This document shows positions 5,134-7,502 of a stretch of DNA of 34,042 nucleotides, piece after piece. Position 1 is the stretch's first letter. Each line of letters starts with the position of its first letter. The stretch is taken from positions 1-34,042 of IMG/VR virus record IMGVR_UViG_2571042487_000002; one strand, given 5' to 3'. Source of the stretch: a virus. Lineage: Duplodnaviria > Heunggongvirae > Uroviricota > Caudoviricetes. The notes below the pieces were generated by a model. That model was not told where the DNA came from. It worked only from the letters and a program-made list of their open reading frames with translations, and ran no database searches. The position numbers and the translations under genes were made by a program.

Positions 5134-6504
5134 GTGCTAATGTCTGCATCCCCTCTTGAATCCATGCCAAATTCCCTTAGTGCAGAACAAGCTGTACTTG
5201 GTGGCTTAATGCTTGATAACTGCCGCTGGGATGAAGTTGCAGATCGTATAGTTGCTGATGATTTTTATACCAGTGCTCATCGTGAAATTTTCAGTGAGAT
5301 GGAGAGGTTATTAAGTCATGGCAAACCGATTGATTTGATAACACTTGCTGAAGCACTTGAACAGAACGGTAAATTAGAACGCGCCGGTGGTTTTGCGTAC
5401 CTTGCGGAGATGTCAAAGAACACGCCCAGCGCGGCAAATATTTGTGCTTATGCGGATATCGTTCGTGAACGCGCGGTTGTTCGTGAAATGATTTCCGTCG
5501 CAAATGAAATAGCCGAAGCTGGATATGCGCAGGATGGCAGGGGCAGCAATGAATTGCTGGATATGGCCGAGCGCCGCGTTTTTGAAATAGCTGAAAAACG
5601 ACAAAAGAGCGGTAGTGGTCCAAAAGATATCGCCAGCATTCTCGATGCAACGGTATCTCGCATAGAAGAGTTGTTTCAGCGACCACATGATGGTGTAACG
5701 GGGCTTGATACGGGATTTACCGATCTCAATAAGAAGACGGCAGGGCTTCAGCCGTCCGATCTCATCATTGTCGCCGCCCGCCCATCGATGGGGAAGACTA
5801 CGTTTGCGATGAATCTCGTCGAAAATGCCGCAGTCCGTAACGATAAGCCCGTATTGGTTTTTAGCCTTGAGATGCCGAGCCACCAGCTGATGATGCGCTC
5901 ACTGGCTTCTCTTGCACGCGTTGATCAGACTCGTATTCGAACAGGGCAACTTAACGACGAGGATTGGGCGCGGGTTTCTGGCGCAATGGGGATTCTGTTG
6001 GACAAGCAGAATATTTTTATTGATGACTCAAGCGCCCTGACACCTACAGAGCTTCGTTCCCGCGCTCGTCGTGTTTATAAAGAAAATGGTGGTTTGAGCA
6101 TGATTATGATCGACTACCTGCAACTTATGCGCGTCCCCGAGCTGCAAGATAACCGAACGCTGGAAATTGCCGAGATTTCTCGCTCACTGAAGGCTTTGGC
6201 GAAGGAATTACAAGTACCGGTGGTGGCATTGTCACAACTTAATCGATCGCTTGAACAGCGTGCGGACAAACGACCGGTAAATTCAGATTTACGTGAATCA
6301 GGAGCAATTGAGCAGGACGCAGACCTGATCATGTTTCTGTATCGCGACGAAGTTTATCACCCGGATAGCGAAATGAAGGGCATTGCCGAGGTAATTATCG
6401 GAAAGCAACGAAATGGCCCAATTGGCACGGTGAGATTGGCTTTTAACGGCCAATACTCACGGTTTGATAACTATGCTGGTGCTGACTGGCAAGAGGATTA
6501 TTAA
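5134..6504 (+). CDS. ban: Replicative DNA helicase, DnaB family
   Basis: 456 aa; DnaB N-terminal domain plus RecA-like core with Walker A (ARPSMGKTTFA) and the conserved IMIDYLQLM segment; true start may be the ATG two codons in (5140). Confidence 0.9.
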   Translation: MLMSASPLESMPNSLSAEQAVLGGLMLDNCRWDEVADRIVADDFYTSAHREIFSEMERLLSHGKPIDLITLAEALEQNGKLERAGGFAYLAEMSKNTPSAANICAYADIVRERAVVREMISVANEIAEAGYAQDGRGSNELLDMAERRVFEIAEKRQKSGSGPKDIASILDATVSRIEELFQRPHDGVTGLDTGFTDLNKKTAGLQPSDLIIVAARPSMGKTTFAMNLVENAAVRNDKPVLVFSLEMPSHQLMMRSLASLARVDQTRIRTGQLNDEDWARVSGAMGILLDKQNIFIDDSSALTPTELRSRARRVYKENGGLSMIMIDYLQLMRVPELQDNRTLEIAEISRSLKALAKELQVPVVALSQLNRSLEQRADKRPVNSDLRESGAIEQDADLIMFLYRDEVYHPDSEMKGIAEVIIGKQRNGPIGTVRLAFNGQYSRFDNYAGADWQEDY

Positions 6505-7502
6505 TGCAATGGAATGAGGAAAAGCCGATGAACATCCTGATCATTGGGCGAAAATTTGAAGCTATCAGTGATGTGAAAACATATACGGAAATGTGGGCTT
6601 ACAACCTGGCCTGCGCCTTTAGTGAGGCAGGGGTAACATTGCAATACCATCGTCCATATTCCCCCGGCGTCGAAAGCCCGGAGGATTATGTTGAAGCTGT
6701 GTTGACCGCTGCGACCTCGTGTTCTGCGAAAGCCATTTTAGCGCCAGGATTGCGGTATTTTACTACGGTGCCCAGGGAAATAGGCGTGCAACTGCGTCGT
6801 CGATTCACTGGATGGGTAGCCCAGGTATACGACGGTTCTATGCTGGATTCGGCACCAGTCGATATTACTTTTACTGTCCGCGATGATACCTGGCGGTACC
6901 TGGATAATCCAGGCAGGTTAGAGCGTCATAATCGTTTTAACAAACATGTTGGATGGGCAGCGAATCAGGATCTGTTCCATCTGGAAACCAAAACAGACAA
7001 TGTTCTGCGTATTTTTGTAGACCACGCTGCATTTGATGTTAGTGGTTTTGATCACTCCTTAAGTATCCTTATGAACCTTCAGCGTCTGACCGTTCCGTAT
7101 GAGGCCAGAACGTTGACTGATGACGGATTGGTTACCATTGATCCGGGGAATATTTCGGTAACTCCATACAGACGGACGCCGGTGCCAGCAACCGAATTTG
7201 CAGCTGAATTGCGTAAGAGTGACGTGTTTATCGTTACGCATCCCGAAAGCCTTGGATTAACTGTACTTGAGGCGGCAATGTGCGGGGCGTTGGTATTAAC
7301 GCCTCCCGATTGCCTTCCGCCAGATCGCCTGGCTTTGGTGAACCATATGGTTATCAAGTCGCGGATTGATTGGGATGAGGTTATTGCTCGCGTTGATCGC
7401 GTGAAAAATGCTGAAAAGGTCCAGTGTCACACCTGGTCGGCAATTGCGGAAAAGATGCTTGAGACGTTTGTCACGCAGAAACCGTCGCGCGGTAACGGAT
7501 AA
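6504..7502 (+). CDS. GT-B fold (GT4-like) glycosyltransferase-like protein
   Basis: 332 aa; N-terminus MNILIIGRKF... and C-terminal ESLGLTVLEAAMCGALVL resemble the donor-binding EX7E region of retaining GT4 enzymes. ATG overlaps the helicase stop (alternative start at 6528). Syntenic with P1 dbn. Confidence 0.55.
   Translation: MQWNEEKPMNILIIGRKFEAISDVKTYTEMWAYNLACAFSEAGVTLQYHRPYSPGVESPEDYVEAVLTAATSCSAKAILAPGLRYFTTVPREIGVQLRRRFTGWVAQVYDGSMLDSAPVDITFTVRDDTWRYLDNPGRLERHNRFNKHVGWAANQDLFHLETKTDNVLRIFVDHAAFDVSGFDHSLSILMNLQRLTVPYEARTLTDDGLVTIDPGNISVTPYRRTPVPATEFAAELRKSDVFIVTHPESLGLTVLEAAMCGALVLTPPDCLPPDRLALVNHMVIKSRIDWDEVIARVDRVKNAEKVQCHTWSAIAEKMLETFVTQKPSRGNG

What the first reader, a model, noticed from the sequence alone, without database searches (positions are those of the whole stretch)
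6504..7502. GT-B glycosyltransferase-like gene coupled to the replicative helicase
The ORF whose start overlaps the helicase stop has the N-terminal Rossmann start (MNILIIGRKF) and the C-terminal ESLGLTVLEAAMCGALVL donor-binding signature of GT4-type glycosyltransferases. A glycosyltransferase co-expressed with an early replication gene is unusual, and the target (DNA, LPS/O-antigen or protein) is unknown.
Basis: inference. Interest (0 to 1): 0.45.

Follow-up and report, generated by a model that had tools for sequence, protein, structure and literature searches.

The report
Phage P1 dbn glycosyltransferase gene
This is the long-annotated dbn gene of phage P1: a real, conserved sugar-transferring enzyme of untested function that seems to work with three other P1 sugar transferases, not with the DNA helicase it sits behind.

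Summary

The helicase coupling is a P1-lineage accident. Homologues start at M9 (ATG 6528). Eight of 80 P1-like contigs have another ORF between ban and dbn. No homologue outside the P1 group lies beside a helicase.

What appears unreported is the company dbn keeps. In every non-P1 context examined, the Dbn homologue is fused to, adjacent to, or within 14 kb of a WaaZ/MptE-like transferase. In phages this is a module with homologues of P1 PmgO and PmgP (both WaaZ-like) and PmgQ (GT8 fold), which lie 6 kb away in this window.

Dbn is most likely an accessory hexosyltransferase that extends a Kdo-type glycan. The final acceptor is unproven: host LPS or a lipid-linked glycan is favoured, virion proteins are the rival, and DNA is unlikely.

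The parts
6504..7502 (+). dbn ORF, 332 aa from ATG 6504 (324 aa from the conserved ATG 6528). A GT-B, GT4-like glycosyltransferase.
6528..6530 (+). Conserved alternative start codon (M9, MNILIIG). It is preceded by GAGGA at 6516-6520. The ATG at 6504 is preceded by GAGGA at 6493-6497.
7236..7286 (+). Donor-site motif THPESLGLTVLEAAMCG (T245-G261). It contains EX7E (E248 = 7245-7247, E256 = 7269-7271). H246, E248, G251, E256 and G261 are invariant.
7020..7025 (+). Invariant D173-H174 at the end of the first strand of the C-terminal Rossmann domain. This is roughly the position where WaaG has its GSDFGRKG segment (low-confidence alignment).
5134..6504 (+). ban, a DnaB-type replicative helicase and the upstream neighbour. 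Its stop overlaps the dbn ATG.
7523..7549 (.). A-tract/GC hairpin/U-tract. A bidirectional intrinsic terminator between the convergent genes dbn and gene 5.
   Evidence: dG -17.6 kcal/mol, z -4.4
2305..2332 (.). Paired C1 repressor operators (Op72a/b) at the ban-operon promoter, which places dbn under C1 control.
13437..14099 (+). pmgO, 220 aa. A WaaZ/MptE-like (DUF115) transferase and a predicted module partner.
13997..14623 (+). pmgP, 208 aa. A paralogue of pmgO, WaaZ/MptE-like, and a predicted module partner.
15294..15995 (+). pmgQ, 233 aa. A GT8-fold GT-A glycosyltransferase (DLDT, FHGxPRP) and a predicted module partner.

Best explanation
The ORF is P1 dbn. It encodes a soluble cytoplasmic glycosyltransferase of GT-B fold that belongs to a small, divergent offshoot of the retaining GT4 clan.

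It is not functionally tied to the helicase. It is the variable fourth enzyme of a phage-borne glycan-assembly module. The conserved core of that module is PmgO and PmgP (two paralogous WaaZ/MptE-like transferases, predicted to use a CMP-activated ulosonic acid such as host CMP-Kdo) plus PmgQ (a GT8-like hexosyltransferase).

Inferred mechanism: Dbn binds a host nucleotide sugar in its C-terminal domain through the TH-x-ES-x-G-x4-E motif. It then transfers the sugar, with retention of configuration, to a saccharide acceptor. That acceptor is the Kdo-type residue placed by its WaaZ-like partner, or the sugar on which that partner then acts. The module would thus build a short Kdo-containing oligosaccharide at the cytoplasmic face of the membrane.

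The final carrier is not established. I favour host LPS inner core or another lipid-linked surface glycan (about 0.4), which would alter the LPS that P1 and many other phages adsorb to. The next candidate is phage virion proteins (about 0.25-0.3).

In P1 the module is split. dbn rides at the end of the C1-repressed ban operon, and pmgO-pmgP-(ppp)-pmgQ lie 6 kb away beyond the tail-gene block.

Shown here: identity, fold, conserved active site, purifying selection, gene linkage and gene fusion. Inferred: donor, acceptor and biological role.
For: - Identity: 98.5-99.4% DNA identity to P1 and RCS47, where the gene is annotated dbn/'possible glycosyltransferase'.
- Active site: D173-H174, H246, E248, G251, E256 and G261 are invariant in 52 sequences down to 24% identity and in all 56 P1-like alleles. 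pN/pS is 0.126.
- Solubility: no transmembrane segment.
- Linkage, phage L004: PmgO-PmgP-GT-A-Dbn-PmgQ are contiguous with overlapping genes.
- Linkage, L162: PmgP-Dbn-PmgQ-PmgO are contiguous.
- Linkage, isolated coliphages: EP_H11 has PmgO-PmgP-Dbn-PmgQ contiguous. IME392 has homologues of all four genes within about 2.7 kb in the same order (record coordinates).
- Linkage, 95-kb phage-plasmids: L003, L114 and L173 carry all four genes within about 7 kb. L085 shows PmgP, PmgQ and Dbn, with the locus starting inside the block.
- Linkage, jumbo phages CM1 and RAS14: Dbn, PmgP and PmgQ homologues lie within 14 kb.
- Fusion: natural protein P0089 is a PmgO-like domain (residues 19-227, E 1e-22) joined to a Dbn domain (219-514, E 4e-30).
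- Bacterial relatives: three bacterial polysaccharide loci (L159 Brucella, L163 Colwellia, L174) have a WaaZ/MptE-like gene directly upstream of the Dbn homologue (L163 has one small ORF between). The P1 protein is up to 52% identical to these. L159 and L163 carry the ABC-transporter genes.
- PmgO and PmgP are WaaZ-like: hhalign of the PmgO family against bacterial WaaZ-like proteins plus E. coli WaaZ gives probability 96.5%, E 8e-10 over 180 columns. PmgO versus PmgP gives 98.5%.
- Pfam context: E. coli WaaZ itself scores only 29.6 bits on the MptE-like model.
- PmgQ is GT8-like: AF2 pLDDT 94.5, with Foldseek top hits Gat1, GlyE, glycogenin and LgtC. DLDT and FHGxPRP are invariant.
- Dbn is accessory: the PmgO-PmgP-PmgQ trio occurs without Dbn in L171 and L172, with a different fourth gene.
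- Host range: every host named for module-bearing isolated phages is Gram-negative, which fits a CMP-Kdo-type donor.
Against: - No biochemical or phenotypic evidence exists. P1 dbn and pmgO/P/Q are non-essential by CRISPRi and by deletion.
- In the deletion survey, 24 of 29 knockouts, which did not include any of the five essential genes, showed no plaquing defect and no anti-restriction change.
- The Pfam GT1 score is below the curated cut-off, and only the C-terminal motif is recognised at the sequence level.
- The usual GT4 phosphate-binding Arg/Lys segment appears to be replaced by D-H, so donor chemistry could differ (the alignment has only 18% probability).
- In P1 the genes lie in separate transcription units. 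The annotated C1 operator before pmgN/pmgO (Op83) is not found at 3 or fewer mismatches in this window. Co-regulation is therefore not shown.
- The linkage sample is small, about ten independent contexts.
- Against LPS as the carrier: in several phages the module sits inside the late or structural operon. In L172 and D3 it lies directly after the capsid gene, in L161 before the head-closure gene, and in L171 and L004 before terminase.
- Also against LPS: the PAJU2 homologue of PmgO is labelled 'structural protein'. Both points favour a virion target.
Confidence: 0.6

Rival explanations
1. Virion glycosylation. The PmgO/PmgP/PmgQ/Dbn module decorates capsid or tail proteins with a short glycan, as glycosyltransferase operons of mycobacteriophages do. 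Dbn adds one of the sugars.
For: - The module lies inside late or structural operons in several phages. In L172 and D3 it is directly after the major capsid gene. In L161 it lies between a collagen/tail-repeat protein and the head-closure gene. In L171 and L004 it is just before terminase.
- The P1 record gives a late promoter, LPpmgL, upstream of the pmg block.
- P7 annotators called pmgO/P/Q 'head morphogenesis' genes.
- PAJU2 ORF010, a PmgO homologue, is labelled 'structural protein'.
- Structural neighbours of Dbn and PmgQ include cytoplasmic protein-glycan enzymes: GtfC, Gtf3 and the 8xsg glucosyltransferase for Dbn, and GlyE, Gat1 and glycogenin for PmgQ.
Against: - The capsid and tail proteins of the module-bearing phages are of unrelated types (P1, lambda-like, HK97-like, jumbo), so there is no common protein acceptor.
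- The closest non-phage relatives of Dbn act in ABC-transporter polysaccharide loci.
- P1 virion proteomics detected only PmgC and PmgG among the pmg products and did not mention glycosylation. 'glycos' has no occurrence in that paper's text.
- The knockouts make normal plaques.
- The 'hdm' and 'structural protein' labels may rest on gene position or homology alone.
Confidence: 0.27
2. DNA glycosylation linked to replication. Dbn, made together with the helicase, glucosylates phage DNA as the T4 alpha- and beta-glucosyltransferases do.
For: - dbn lies in the same operon as ban and overlaps its stop codon.
Against: - These hits rank below many GT4 glycan enzymes.
- The adjacency to ban is confined to P1-like genomes and is interrupted in 8 of 80.
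- The conserved partners are WaaZ-like and GT8-like glycan enzymes.
- Homologues occur in bacterial capsule-type loci.
- From established knowledge, not tested here: P1 is not known to make hydroxymethyl-pyrimidine DNA, and its DNA is cut normally by restriction enzymes.
- The deletion survey reported no change in anti-restriction activity for the non-essential knockouts.
Confidence: 0.03
3. Dbn acts alone on a host protein or small molecule, for example as an anti-defence or host-takeover modification. The linkage to PmgO/P/Q would then reflect shared mobility, not shared function.
For: - The gene is dispensable in the laboratory yet under purifying selection, as accessory counter-defence genes often are.
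- GT4 neighbours include small-molecule glycosyltransferases: BshA, BGluT, SenB and MshA-like enzymes.
- In P1 dbn is transcribed separately from pmgO-Q.
Against: - A natural PmgO::Dbn fusion exists.
- Adjacency to WaaZ-like genes holds in phages and in three bacterial polysaccharide loci, which is hard to explain by co-mobility alone.
- There is no match to PADLOC defence models.
Confidence: 0.1

Closest known systems
Retaining GT-B glycosyltransferases of CAZy family GT4 (BshA, PimA/PimB', GlgM, WaaG, WaaB)
   Different: Sequence similarity is confined to about 40 residues. The Pfam score is below the gathering threshold. The family has an invariant D-H where WaaG has its Gly-Arg-Lys segment, and an invariant His two residues before the first Glu. 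The protein is shorter (about 320 aa) than most GT4 enzymes.
E. coli LPS core enzymes WaaZ (KdoIII transferase, MptE-like), WaaO/WaaJ (GT8) and WaaG/WaaB (GT4)
   Same: The phage module contains the same three enzyme classes: WaaZ-like (PmgO, PmgP), GT8-like (PmgQ) and GT4-like (Dbn). All are cytoplasmic and would use host nucleotide sugars.
   Different: There is no close sequence relationship. The Dbn profile against WaaG gives 18% probability and against WaaS 0.5%. Action on LPS has not been shown. The module is phage-borne, and in some phages it lies in the structural operon.
WaaZ-like + Dbn-like gene pair in bacterial ABC-transporter (kps-type) polysaccharide loci (Brucella pseudogrignonensis chr 3, a Colwellia MAG, metagenomic locus L174)
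   Same: Direct homologues of Dbn (36-52% identity, full length) lie immediately downstream of a WaaZ/MptE-like gene. All three loci share a GT-B(~320 aa)-WaaZ-like-Dbn-like block.
   Different: In L159 and L163 these sit with KpsM/KpsT-like transporters (plus a Poly_export gene in L163), and none shows phage genes. The products are uncharacterised too. The phage versions lack any export genes.
Phage glycosylation systems: Gtr-type O-antigen conversion (GtrA/GtrB/GtrC), mycobacteriophage virion-glycosylation operons, T4 DNA glucosyltransferases
   Same: All are phage-encoded glycosyltransferases that are dispensable for growth in the laboratory. They change a surface or a nucleic acid that other agents recognise.
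   Different: Gtr enzymes are membrane proteins that act in the periplasm on a bactoprenol-linked sugar, whereas Dbn has no membrane segment. T4 AGT and BGT need hydroxymethylcytosine DNA. The mycobacteriophage operons are not reported to contain WaaZ/MptE-like enzymes (from memory, not tested here).

Membership tests
GT-B fold glycosyltransferase superfamily | Two Rossmann-like beta/alpha/beta domains with an inter-domain cleft | tested here: met
CAZy GT4 / Pfam Glycos_transf_1 (PF00534) | Sequence match above the curated Pfam gathering score | tested here: not met
   25.0 bits against a cut-off of 26.4, residues 229-315 only. The NCBIfam matches are negligible. RefSeq nevertheless names the protein 'glycosyltransferase family 4 protein'.
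CAZy GT4 / Pfam Glycos_transf_1 (PF00534) | E-x7-E motif in the C-terminal domain | tested here: met
   E248-x7-E256 is invariant in alignments A1 and A2 and in 56 P1-like alleles. It aligns with ESLGLMALEA of 8xsg.
CAZy GT4 / Pfam Glycos_transf_1 (PF00534) | Basic Arg/Lys pair after the first strand of the C-terminal domain that binds the donor diphosphate | tested here: inconclusive
   The family has an invariant D173-H174 there. The alignment to the WaaG GSDFGRKG segment has low confidence, 18% probability. R237 and R275 are conserved and might substitute.
CAZy GT4 / Pfam Glycos_transf_1 (PF00534) | Retaining transfer from a nucleotide sugar | not testable with these tools
   This needs enzyme assays and product NMR.
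Phage PmgO/PmgP/PmgQ/Dbn glycan module (proposed here) | The Dbn homologue is linked (fused, adjacent or within 14 kb) to a WaaZ/MptE-like transferase | tested here: met
   The link holds in all non-P1 contexts examined: L003-type, L004, L161 (fusion), L162, L177, the CM1/RAS14 jumbo phages, L159, L163 and L174. In this window pmgO and pmgP lie 6 kb from dbn.
Phage PmgO/PmgP/PmgQ/Dbn glycan module (proposed here) | The proteins act on one glycan in sequence | not testable with these tools
   The claim rests on inference from linkage and from the fusion protein only.
T4-type DNA glucosyltransferases (GT63/GT72) | Closest structural similarity to AGT/BGT and presence of a hydroxymethyl-pyrimidine DNA pathway | tested here: not met
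Gtr-type serotype-conversion glycosyltransferases | Integral membrane proteins (GtrA flippase, GtrB GT2, GtrC GT-C) | tested here: not met
   The maximum 19-residue hydropathy is 1.53, located in the Rossmann core. There is no membrane segment and the fold is GT-B.

The most novel reading that the evidence does not exclude
Phage P1 and many other phages of Gram-negative bacteria (lambda/N15-like, HK97-like and jumbo phages) may carry an unrecognised, modular glycan-assembly system. It is centred on WaaZ-like (Kdo-type) transferases, with GT8-like, Dbn-type GT4-like and methyltransferase add-ons. Using only host nucleotide sugars, it would build a Kdo-containing oligosaccharide on host LPS core or on virion proteins. 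Either outcome would be a new form of phage-directed glycosylation. Protein-linked Kdo would have no precedent known to me, and remodelling of the LPS inner core from the cytoplasmic side by a phage would differ mechanistically from Gtr-type conversion.
Probability: 0.4. Interest if true: 0.65.

Novelty: already known. Interest (0 to 1): 0.3.

Why it matters
As it stands the finding is ordinary. It rediscovers a named P1 gene whose predicted activity has been in GenBank since the P1 genome was annotated.

The value lies in the context. After two decades dbn, pmgO, pmgP and pmgQ still have no function. They are dispensable in the laboratory, yet they are conserved and under purifying selection. 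The linkage and fusion evidence turns four orphan genes of a classic model phage into one testable hypothesis, and P1 genetics and E. coli K-12 LPS chemistry are both mature enough to test it.

If the module remodels LPS, it bears on receptor masking, superinfection and loss of progeny to cell debris among LPS-binding phages. It also bears on the use of P1-type phage-plasmids, which spread resistance genes. If the module glycosylates virions, it would extend phage virion glycosylation to Gram-negative hosts, with consequences for immune recognition of therapeutic phages.

Tried and rejected
- Two scans of viral contigs with alignments A1 and A2 returned almost only P1-like contigs, so they added no diversity.
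The genome scan with A1 gave only three loci.
- Sequence searches of PmgO, PmgP and PmgQ against PDB sequences gave nothing significant.
- A single-sequence profile comparison of the PmgP family with E. coli WaaZ was weak, 13% probability. Only family-versus-family comparison was convincing.
- I considered that Dbn might be related to WaaS, the partner of WaaZ in K-12. This was rejected at 0.5% probability.
- I considered tRNA-queuosine glycosylation, because tRNA-Asn lies in the same operon and eukaryotic GTDC1 is a GT4 enzyme (from memory). I dropped it because no structural or contextual support appeared.
- I tried to support co-regulation of dbn and pmgO-Q by C1. Op72 is clear, but the annotated Op83 is too degenerate in this window to detect.
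- Isoelectric points did not discriminate membrane-associated from soluble action.
- PADLOC gave no hit.
- Contexts of the long fusion proteins P0134 and P0135 were too short to be informative.
- Literature searches found no functional study of dbn or pmgO/P/Q. The P1 genome paper is not in the held library.
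Full report
**What is there**

The window is a P1-like phage. The stretch 5000-8200 is 99.4% identical to Escherichia phage RCS47 and 98.5% identical to P1. ORF 6504-7502 (+, 332 aa) is the P1 gene dbn, "downstream of ban". The P1 GenBank record describes it as "function unknown, possible glycosyltransferase". P7 calls it "glt, putative glycosyltransferase", and RefSeq calls it "glycosyltransferase family 4 protein". The upstream ORF 5134-6504 is ban, a DnaB-type helicase (Pfam DnaB_C, E 5e-108).

The ban stop codon (TAA, 6502-6504) shares one base with the dbn ATG at 6504. A strong hairpin with flanking A and U runs (7523-7549, dG -17.6 kcal/mol, z -4.4) ends the operon between dbn and the convergent baseplate gene 5. 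Paired C1 operators lie at 2305-2332, at the head of the ban operon.

**The start codon and the helicase "coupling"**

Nearly all homologues start at the residue equivalent to M9, with the sequence MK/NILIIG. ATG 6528 has its own GAGGA seven bases upstream, as does ATG 6504 six bases upstream. The junction varies among 80 P1-like contigs:

- 72 have the TAATG junction.
- 2 have TGATG.
- 8 carry a 101-aa ORF between ban and dbn, with dbn starting at the M9 codon.

Outside the P1 group, no Dbn homologue lies next to a helicase gene. The overlap with ban is therefore a feature of gene order in one lineage. It may give translational coupling and early, C1-controlled expression in P1. It says nothing about the substrate.

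**Is it a glycosyltransferase?**

At the sequence level the signal is weak. Pfam Glycos_transf_1 scores 25.0 bits against a 26.4 cut-off, and only for residues 229-315. PHROGs places the protein in an "unknown function" family. A family profile finds a single PDB sequence, the Actinobacillus minor glucosyltransferase 8xsg, through the motif region only.

The structure settles the question of fold. The AlphaFold model built from 19 homologues has pLDDT 88.3 and pTM 0.85.

- Foldseek places retaining GT4 enzymes on top: GlgM at 1e-9, then PimB', BGluT and SenB.
- Lower down are WaaB at 16.5, T4 alpha-glucosyltransferase at 16.0 and UDP-GlcNAc 2-epimerases near 13.

A profile search of 1.84 billion representatives found 374 family clusters, 128 of them at E<=1e-30. 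Across 52 members, down to 24% identity, the invariant residues are D173-H174, H246, E248, G251, E256, G261 and one Trp (W311 by the A5 alignment). These include the E-x7-E motif typical of GT4. All 80 P1-like copies are intact. Their 56 alleles have pN/pS 0.126 and keep these residues. The protein has no membrane segment.

The family is nonetheless atypical. It has an invariant D-H roughly where WaaG has a Gly-Arg-Lys segment, although that alignment has low confidence.

**The company it keeps**

This is the part that goes beyond the existing annotation.

In a lambda/N15-like metagenomic phage (L004) the Dbn homologue (56% identity) lies in one block of overlapping genes. The block contains homologues of the window ORFs 13437-14099, 13997-14623 and 15294-15995, plus one extra GT-A-like gene. 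According to the P1 record these window ORFs are pmgO, pmgP and pmgQ, and ppp is inserted between pmgP and pmgQ.

The same set recurs in other contexts:

- L162 has PmgP-Dbn-PmgQ-PmgO, contiguous.
- The isolated coliphage EP_H11 has PmgO-PmgP-Dbn-PmgQ, contiguous. Its relative IME392 has homologues of all four genes within about 2.7 kb in the same order.
- Among the 95-kb enterobacterial phage-plasmids, L003, L114 and L173 carry all four genes within about 7 kb. L085 shows PmgP, PmgQ and Dbn, with the locus starting inside the block.
- The Stenotrophomonas jumbo phages have Dbn, PmgP and PmgQ homologues within 14 kb.

One natural protein, P0089, is a fusion of a PmgO-like domain (E 1e-22) with a Dbn domain (E 4e-30). 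It is followed by a weak GT8-like gene, a PmgQ-like gene and an FkbM-type methyltransferase.

The PmgO-PmgP-PmgQ trio also occurs without Dbn and with a different fourth gene. One case is a Citrobacter rodentium prophage, where it lies between the lysis genes and terminase. Another is a Pseudomonas prophage, where it lies directly after the capsid gene. In the same type of search the PmgP family is much larger than the Dbn family, 328 against 23 clusters at 90% identity. Dbn therefore looks like a variable, accessory enzyme attached to a conserved core.

**What the partners are**

PmgQ gives a confident model (pLDDT 94.5). Its neighbours are GT8 enzymes: Gat1, GlyE, glycogenin and LgtC. It has an invariant DLDT (a DxD motif) and FHGxPRP. 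I recognise the latter as resembling the H-x-x-G-x-x-K-P-W motif of GT8, which is my own knowledge and not a tool result.

PmgO and PmgP are paralogues (hhalign probability 98.5%). The PmgO family matches an alignment of bacterial WaaZ-like proteins that includes E. coli WaaZ, the LPS KdoIII transferase, at probability 96.5% and E 8e-10 over 180 columns. Pfam's MptE-like model scores all of these below its threshold, and that includes E. coli WaaZ itself at 29.6 bits. RefSeq and some metagenome annotators label PmgO or PmgP "alpha-2,3-sialyltransferase". This fits the known use of CMP-activated ulosonic or nonulosonic acid donors by enzymes of this fold, a point from established knowledge of WaaZ, Maf and Cst-type enzymes.

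**Bacterial relatives**

Three non-phage loci carry a full-length Dbn homologue, 36-52% identical to the P1 protein. Each lies immediately downstream of a WaaZ/MptE-like gene, apart from one small intervening ORF in L163. The loci are Brucella pseudogrignonensis chromosome 3 (L159), a Colwellia MAG (L163) and a 36.5%-GC metagenomic locus (L174).

L159 and L163 are ABC-transporter-type polysaccharide loci with KpsM/KpsT-like genes, and L163 also has a Poly_export gene. All three share a conserved block of GT-B(~320 aa), WaaZ-like and Dbn-like genes. This is the strongest clue to the acceptor. In bacteria this pair of enzymes builds a lipid-linked surface polysaccharide at the cytoplasmic face of the membrane. 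The direct acceptor of a Dbn-type enzyme is therefore most likely a sugar next to a Kdo-type residue, not DNA or a bare protein.

**Most likely mechanism**

The steps below are all inferred.

1. Dbn binds a host nucleotide sugar through the TH-x-ES-x-G-x4-E site.
2. It transfers a hexose, with retention of configuration, to the glycan being built with PmgO, PmgP and PmgQ.
3. The donors must come from the host, because the module carries no sugar-activation genes. In E. coli K-12 the only CMP-ulosonic donor is CMP-Kdo (established knowledge).
4. Every host named for module-bearing isolated phages is Gram-negative, which is consistent with such a donor.

**Which carrier?**

I favour host LPS inner core or another lipid-linked glycan, at about 0.4, for three reasons:

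- The bacterial relatives act on such substrates.
- The module has the same three enzyme classes as the waa locus: WaaZ-like, GT8 and GT4.
- A conserved core acting on a universal Gram-negative acceptor is more economical than recognition of unrelated capsid types.

P1 adsorbs to the LPS core, and over-production of WaaZ is reported to truncate the outer core. Both points come from my memory of the literature and were not checked here.

Against this view, the module often sits inside late or structural operons. In addition, the PAJU2 homologue of PmgO is labelled "structural protein", and the P7 annotators called these genes "head morphogenesis". Virion glycosylation is therefore a serious rival, at about 0.27. 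DNA glycosylation is unlikely, at about 0.03.

**What is known experimentally**

dbn, pmgO, pmgP and pmgQ are non-essential in a CRISPRi screen. In a survey of 29 knockouts, the 24 non-essential mutants showed no plaquing defect and no change in anti-restriction activity. Only PmgC and PmgG among the pmg products were found in virions. The CRISPRi paper cites that survey as showing dbn and pmgO/P/Q to be non-essential. One transcriptome preprint lists dbn only as deregulated in an hfq mutant. I found no functional study.

**Verdict**

The finding rediscovers a known, named gene with the same predicted activity as its public annotation, so it is already known and of modest interest. The helicase coupling is incidental. 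The link between dbn and pmgO/pmgP/pmgQ, through gene order, a natural fusion and bacterial synteny, appears unreported in the literature I could search. It gives a concrete hypothesis for four orphan genes of phage P1 that can be tested cheaply.

Noticed in passing
window 13437-15995: pmgO and pmgP (WaaZ/MptE-like paralogues) and pmgQ (GT8 fold) are annotated only as 'putative morphogenetic function' in the P1 record. The lambda-type Ser/Thr phosphatase gene ppp (14605-15297) is inserted between pmgP and pmgQ in P1-like genomes, but not in the other module-bearing elements.
   Followed up: yes
L077 9699-10004 (and 7 other P1-like contigs): A 101-aa ORF of unknown function is inserted between ban and dbn in 8 of 80 P1-like contigs. 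It replaces the ban-dbn overlap, and dbn then starts at the M9 codon.
   Followed up: partly
window 2988-3063, 3066-3141, 4778-4853: Three tRNA genes lie in the ban operon: Asn-GTT, Thr-TGT and a CAT-anticodon tRNA. ARAGORN calls the last one Met, while the P1 record calls it tRNA-Ile2. They are interleaved with the TerB-like gene tciA (4069-4503).
   Followed up: no
window 2492-2514: A terminator-like hairpin with a T8 run lies about 170 bp downstream of the C1-controlled ban promoter and operators, ahead of the tRNAs, ban and dbn. In P1 this region is annotated 'dicF-like'. It would need read-through for dbn expression from that promoter.
   Followed up: no
window 13270-13300: The C1 operator annotated in P1 as Oppp (Op83), upstream of pmgN/pmgO, is not detected at 3 or fewer mismatches in this window. 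It carries an extra G-to-A change relative to the P1 reference. Other operators (2305, 12373, 15997, 16046, 18138, 33902, 33985) are clear.
   Followed up: partly
L179 4974-6917 (PAJU2), L180 5097-8289 (D3), L181 4986-7071 (Eowyn): A second module type occurs in Pseudomonas D3-like phages and a Klebsiella jumbo phage. It consists of a PmgO-like gene, a ~280-aa protein (weak GT9/heptosyltransferase match in Eowyn) and a Methyltransf_23 methyltransferase. PAJU2 ORF010 (PmgO-like) is labelled 'structural protein'.
   Followed up: partly
proteins P0098, P0108, P0113, P0130, P0134, P0149, P0154, P0162: Dbn-family domains occur as a tandem duplication (P0098). They also occur fused to a SAM methyltransferase (P0108), to an alpha/beta-hydrolase-like region (P0130), or to a ~200-aa C-terminal domain with no Pfam match (P0113, P0134, P0149, P0154, P0162).
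   Followed up: partly
window 12695-13273: pmgM (192 aa) has a weak VRR-NUC nuclease match (E 3e-4). It travels with the pmgO-Q block in the 95-kb phage-plasmids but not in the other module-bearing phages.
   Followed up: no
L161 1643-3535: In the phage that carries the PmgO::Dbn fusion, a 630-aa protein with phage-tail-repeat and collagen-like repeats lies about 770 bp upstream of the fusion gene (two small ORFs between). It is a conceivable glycosylation substrate.
   Followed up: no
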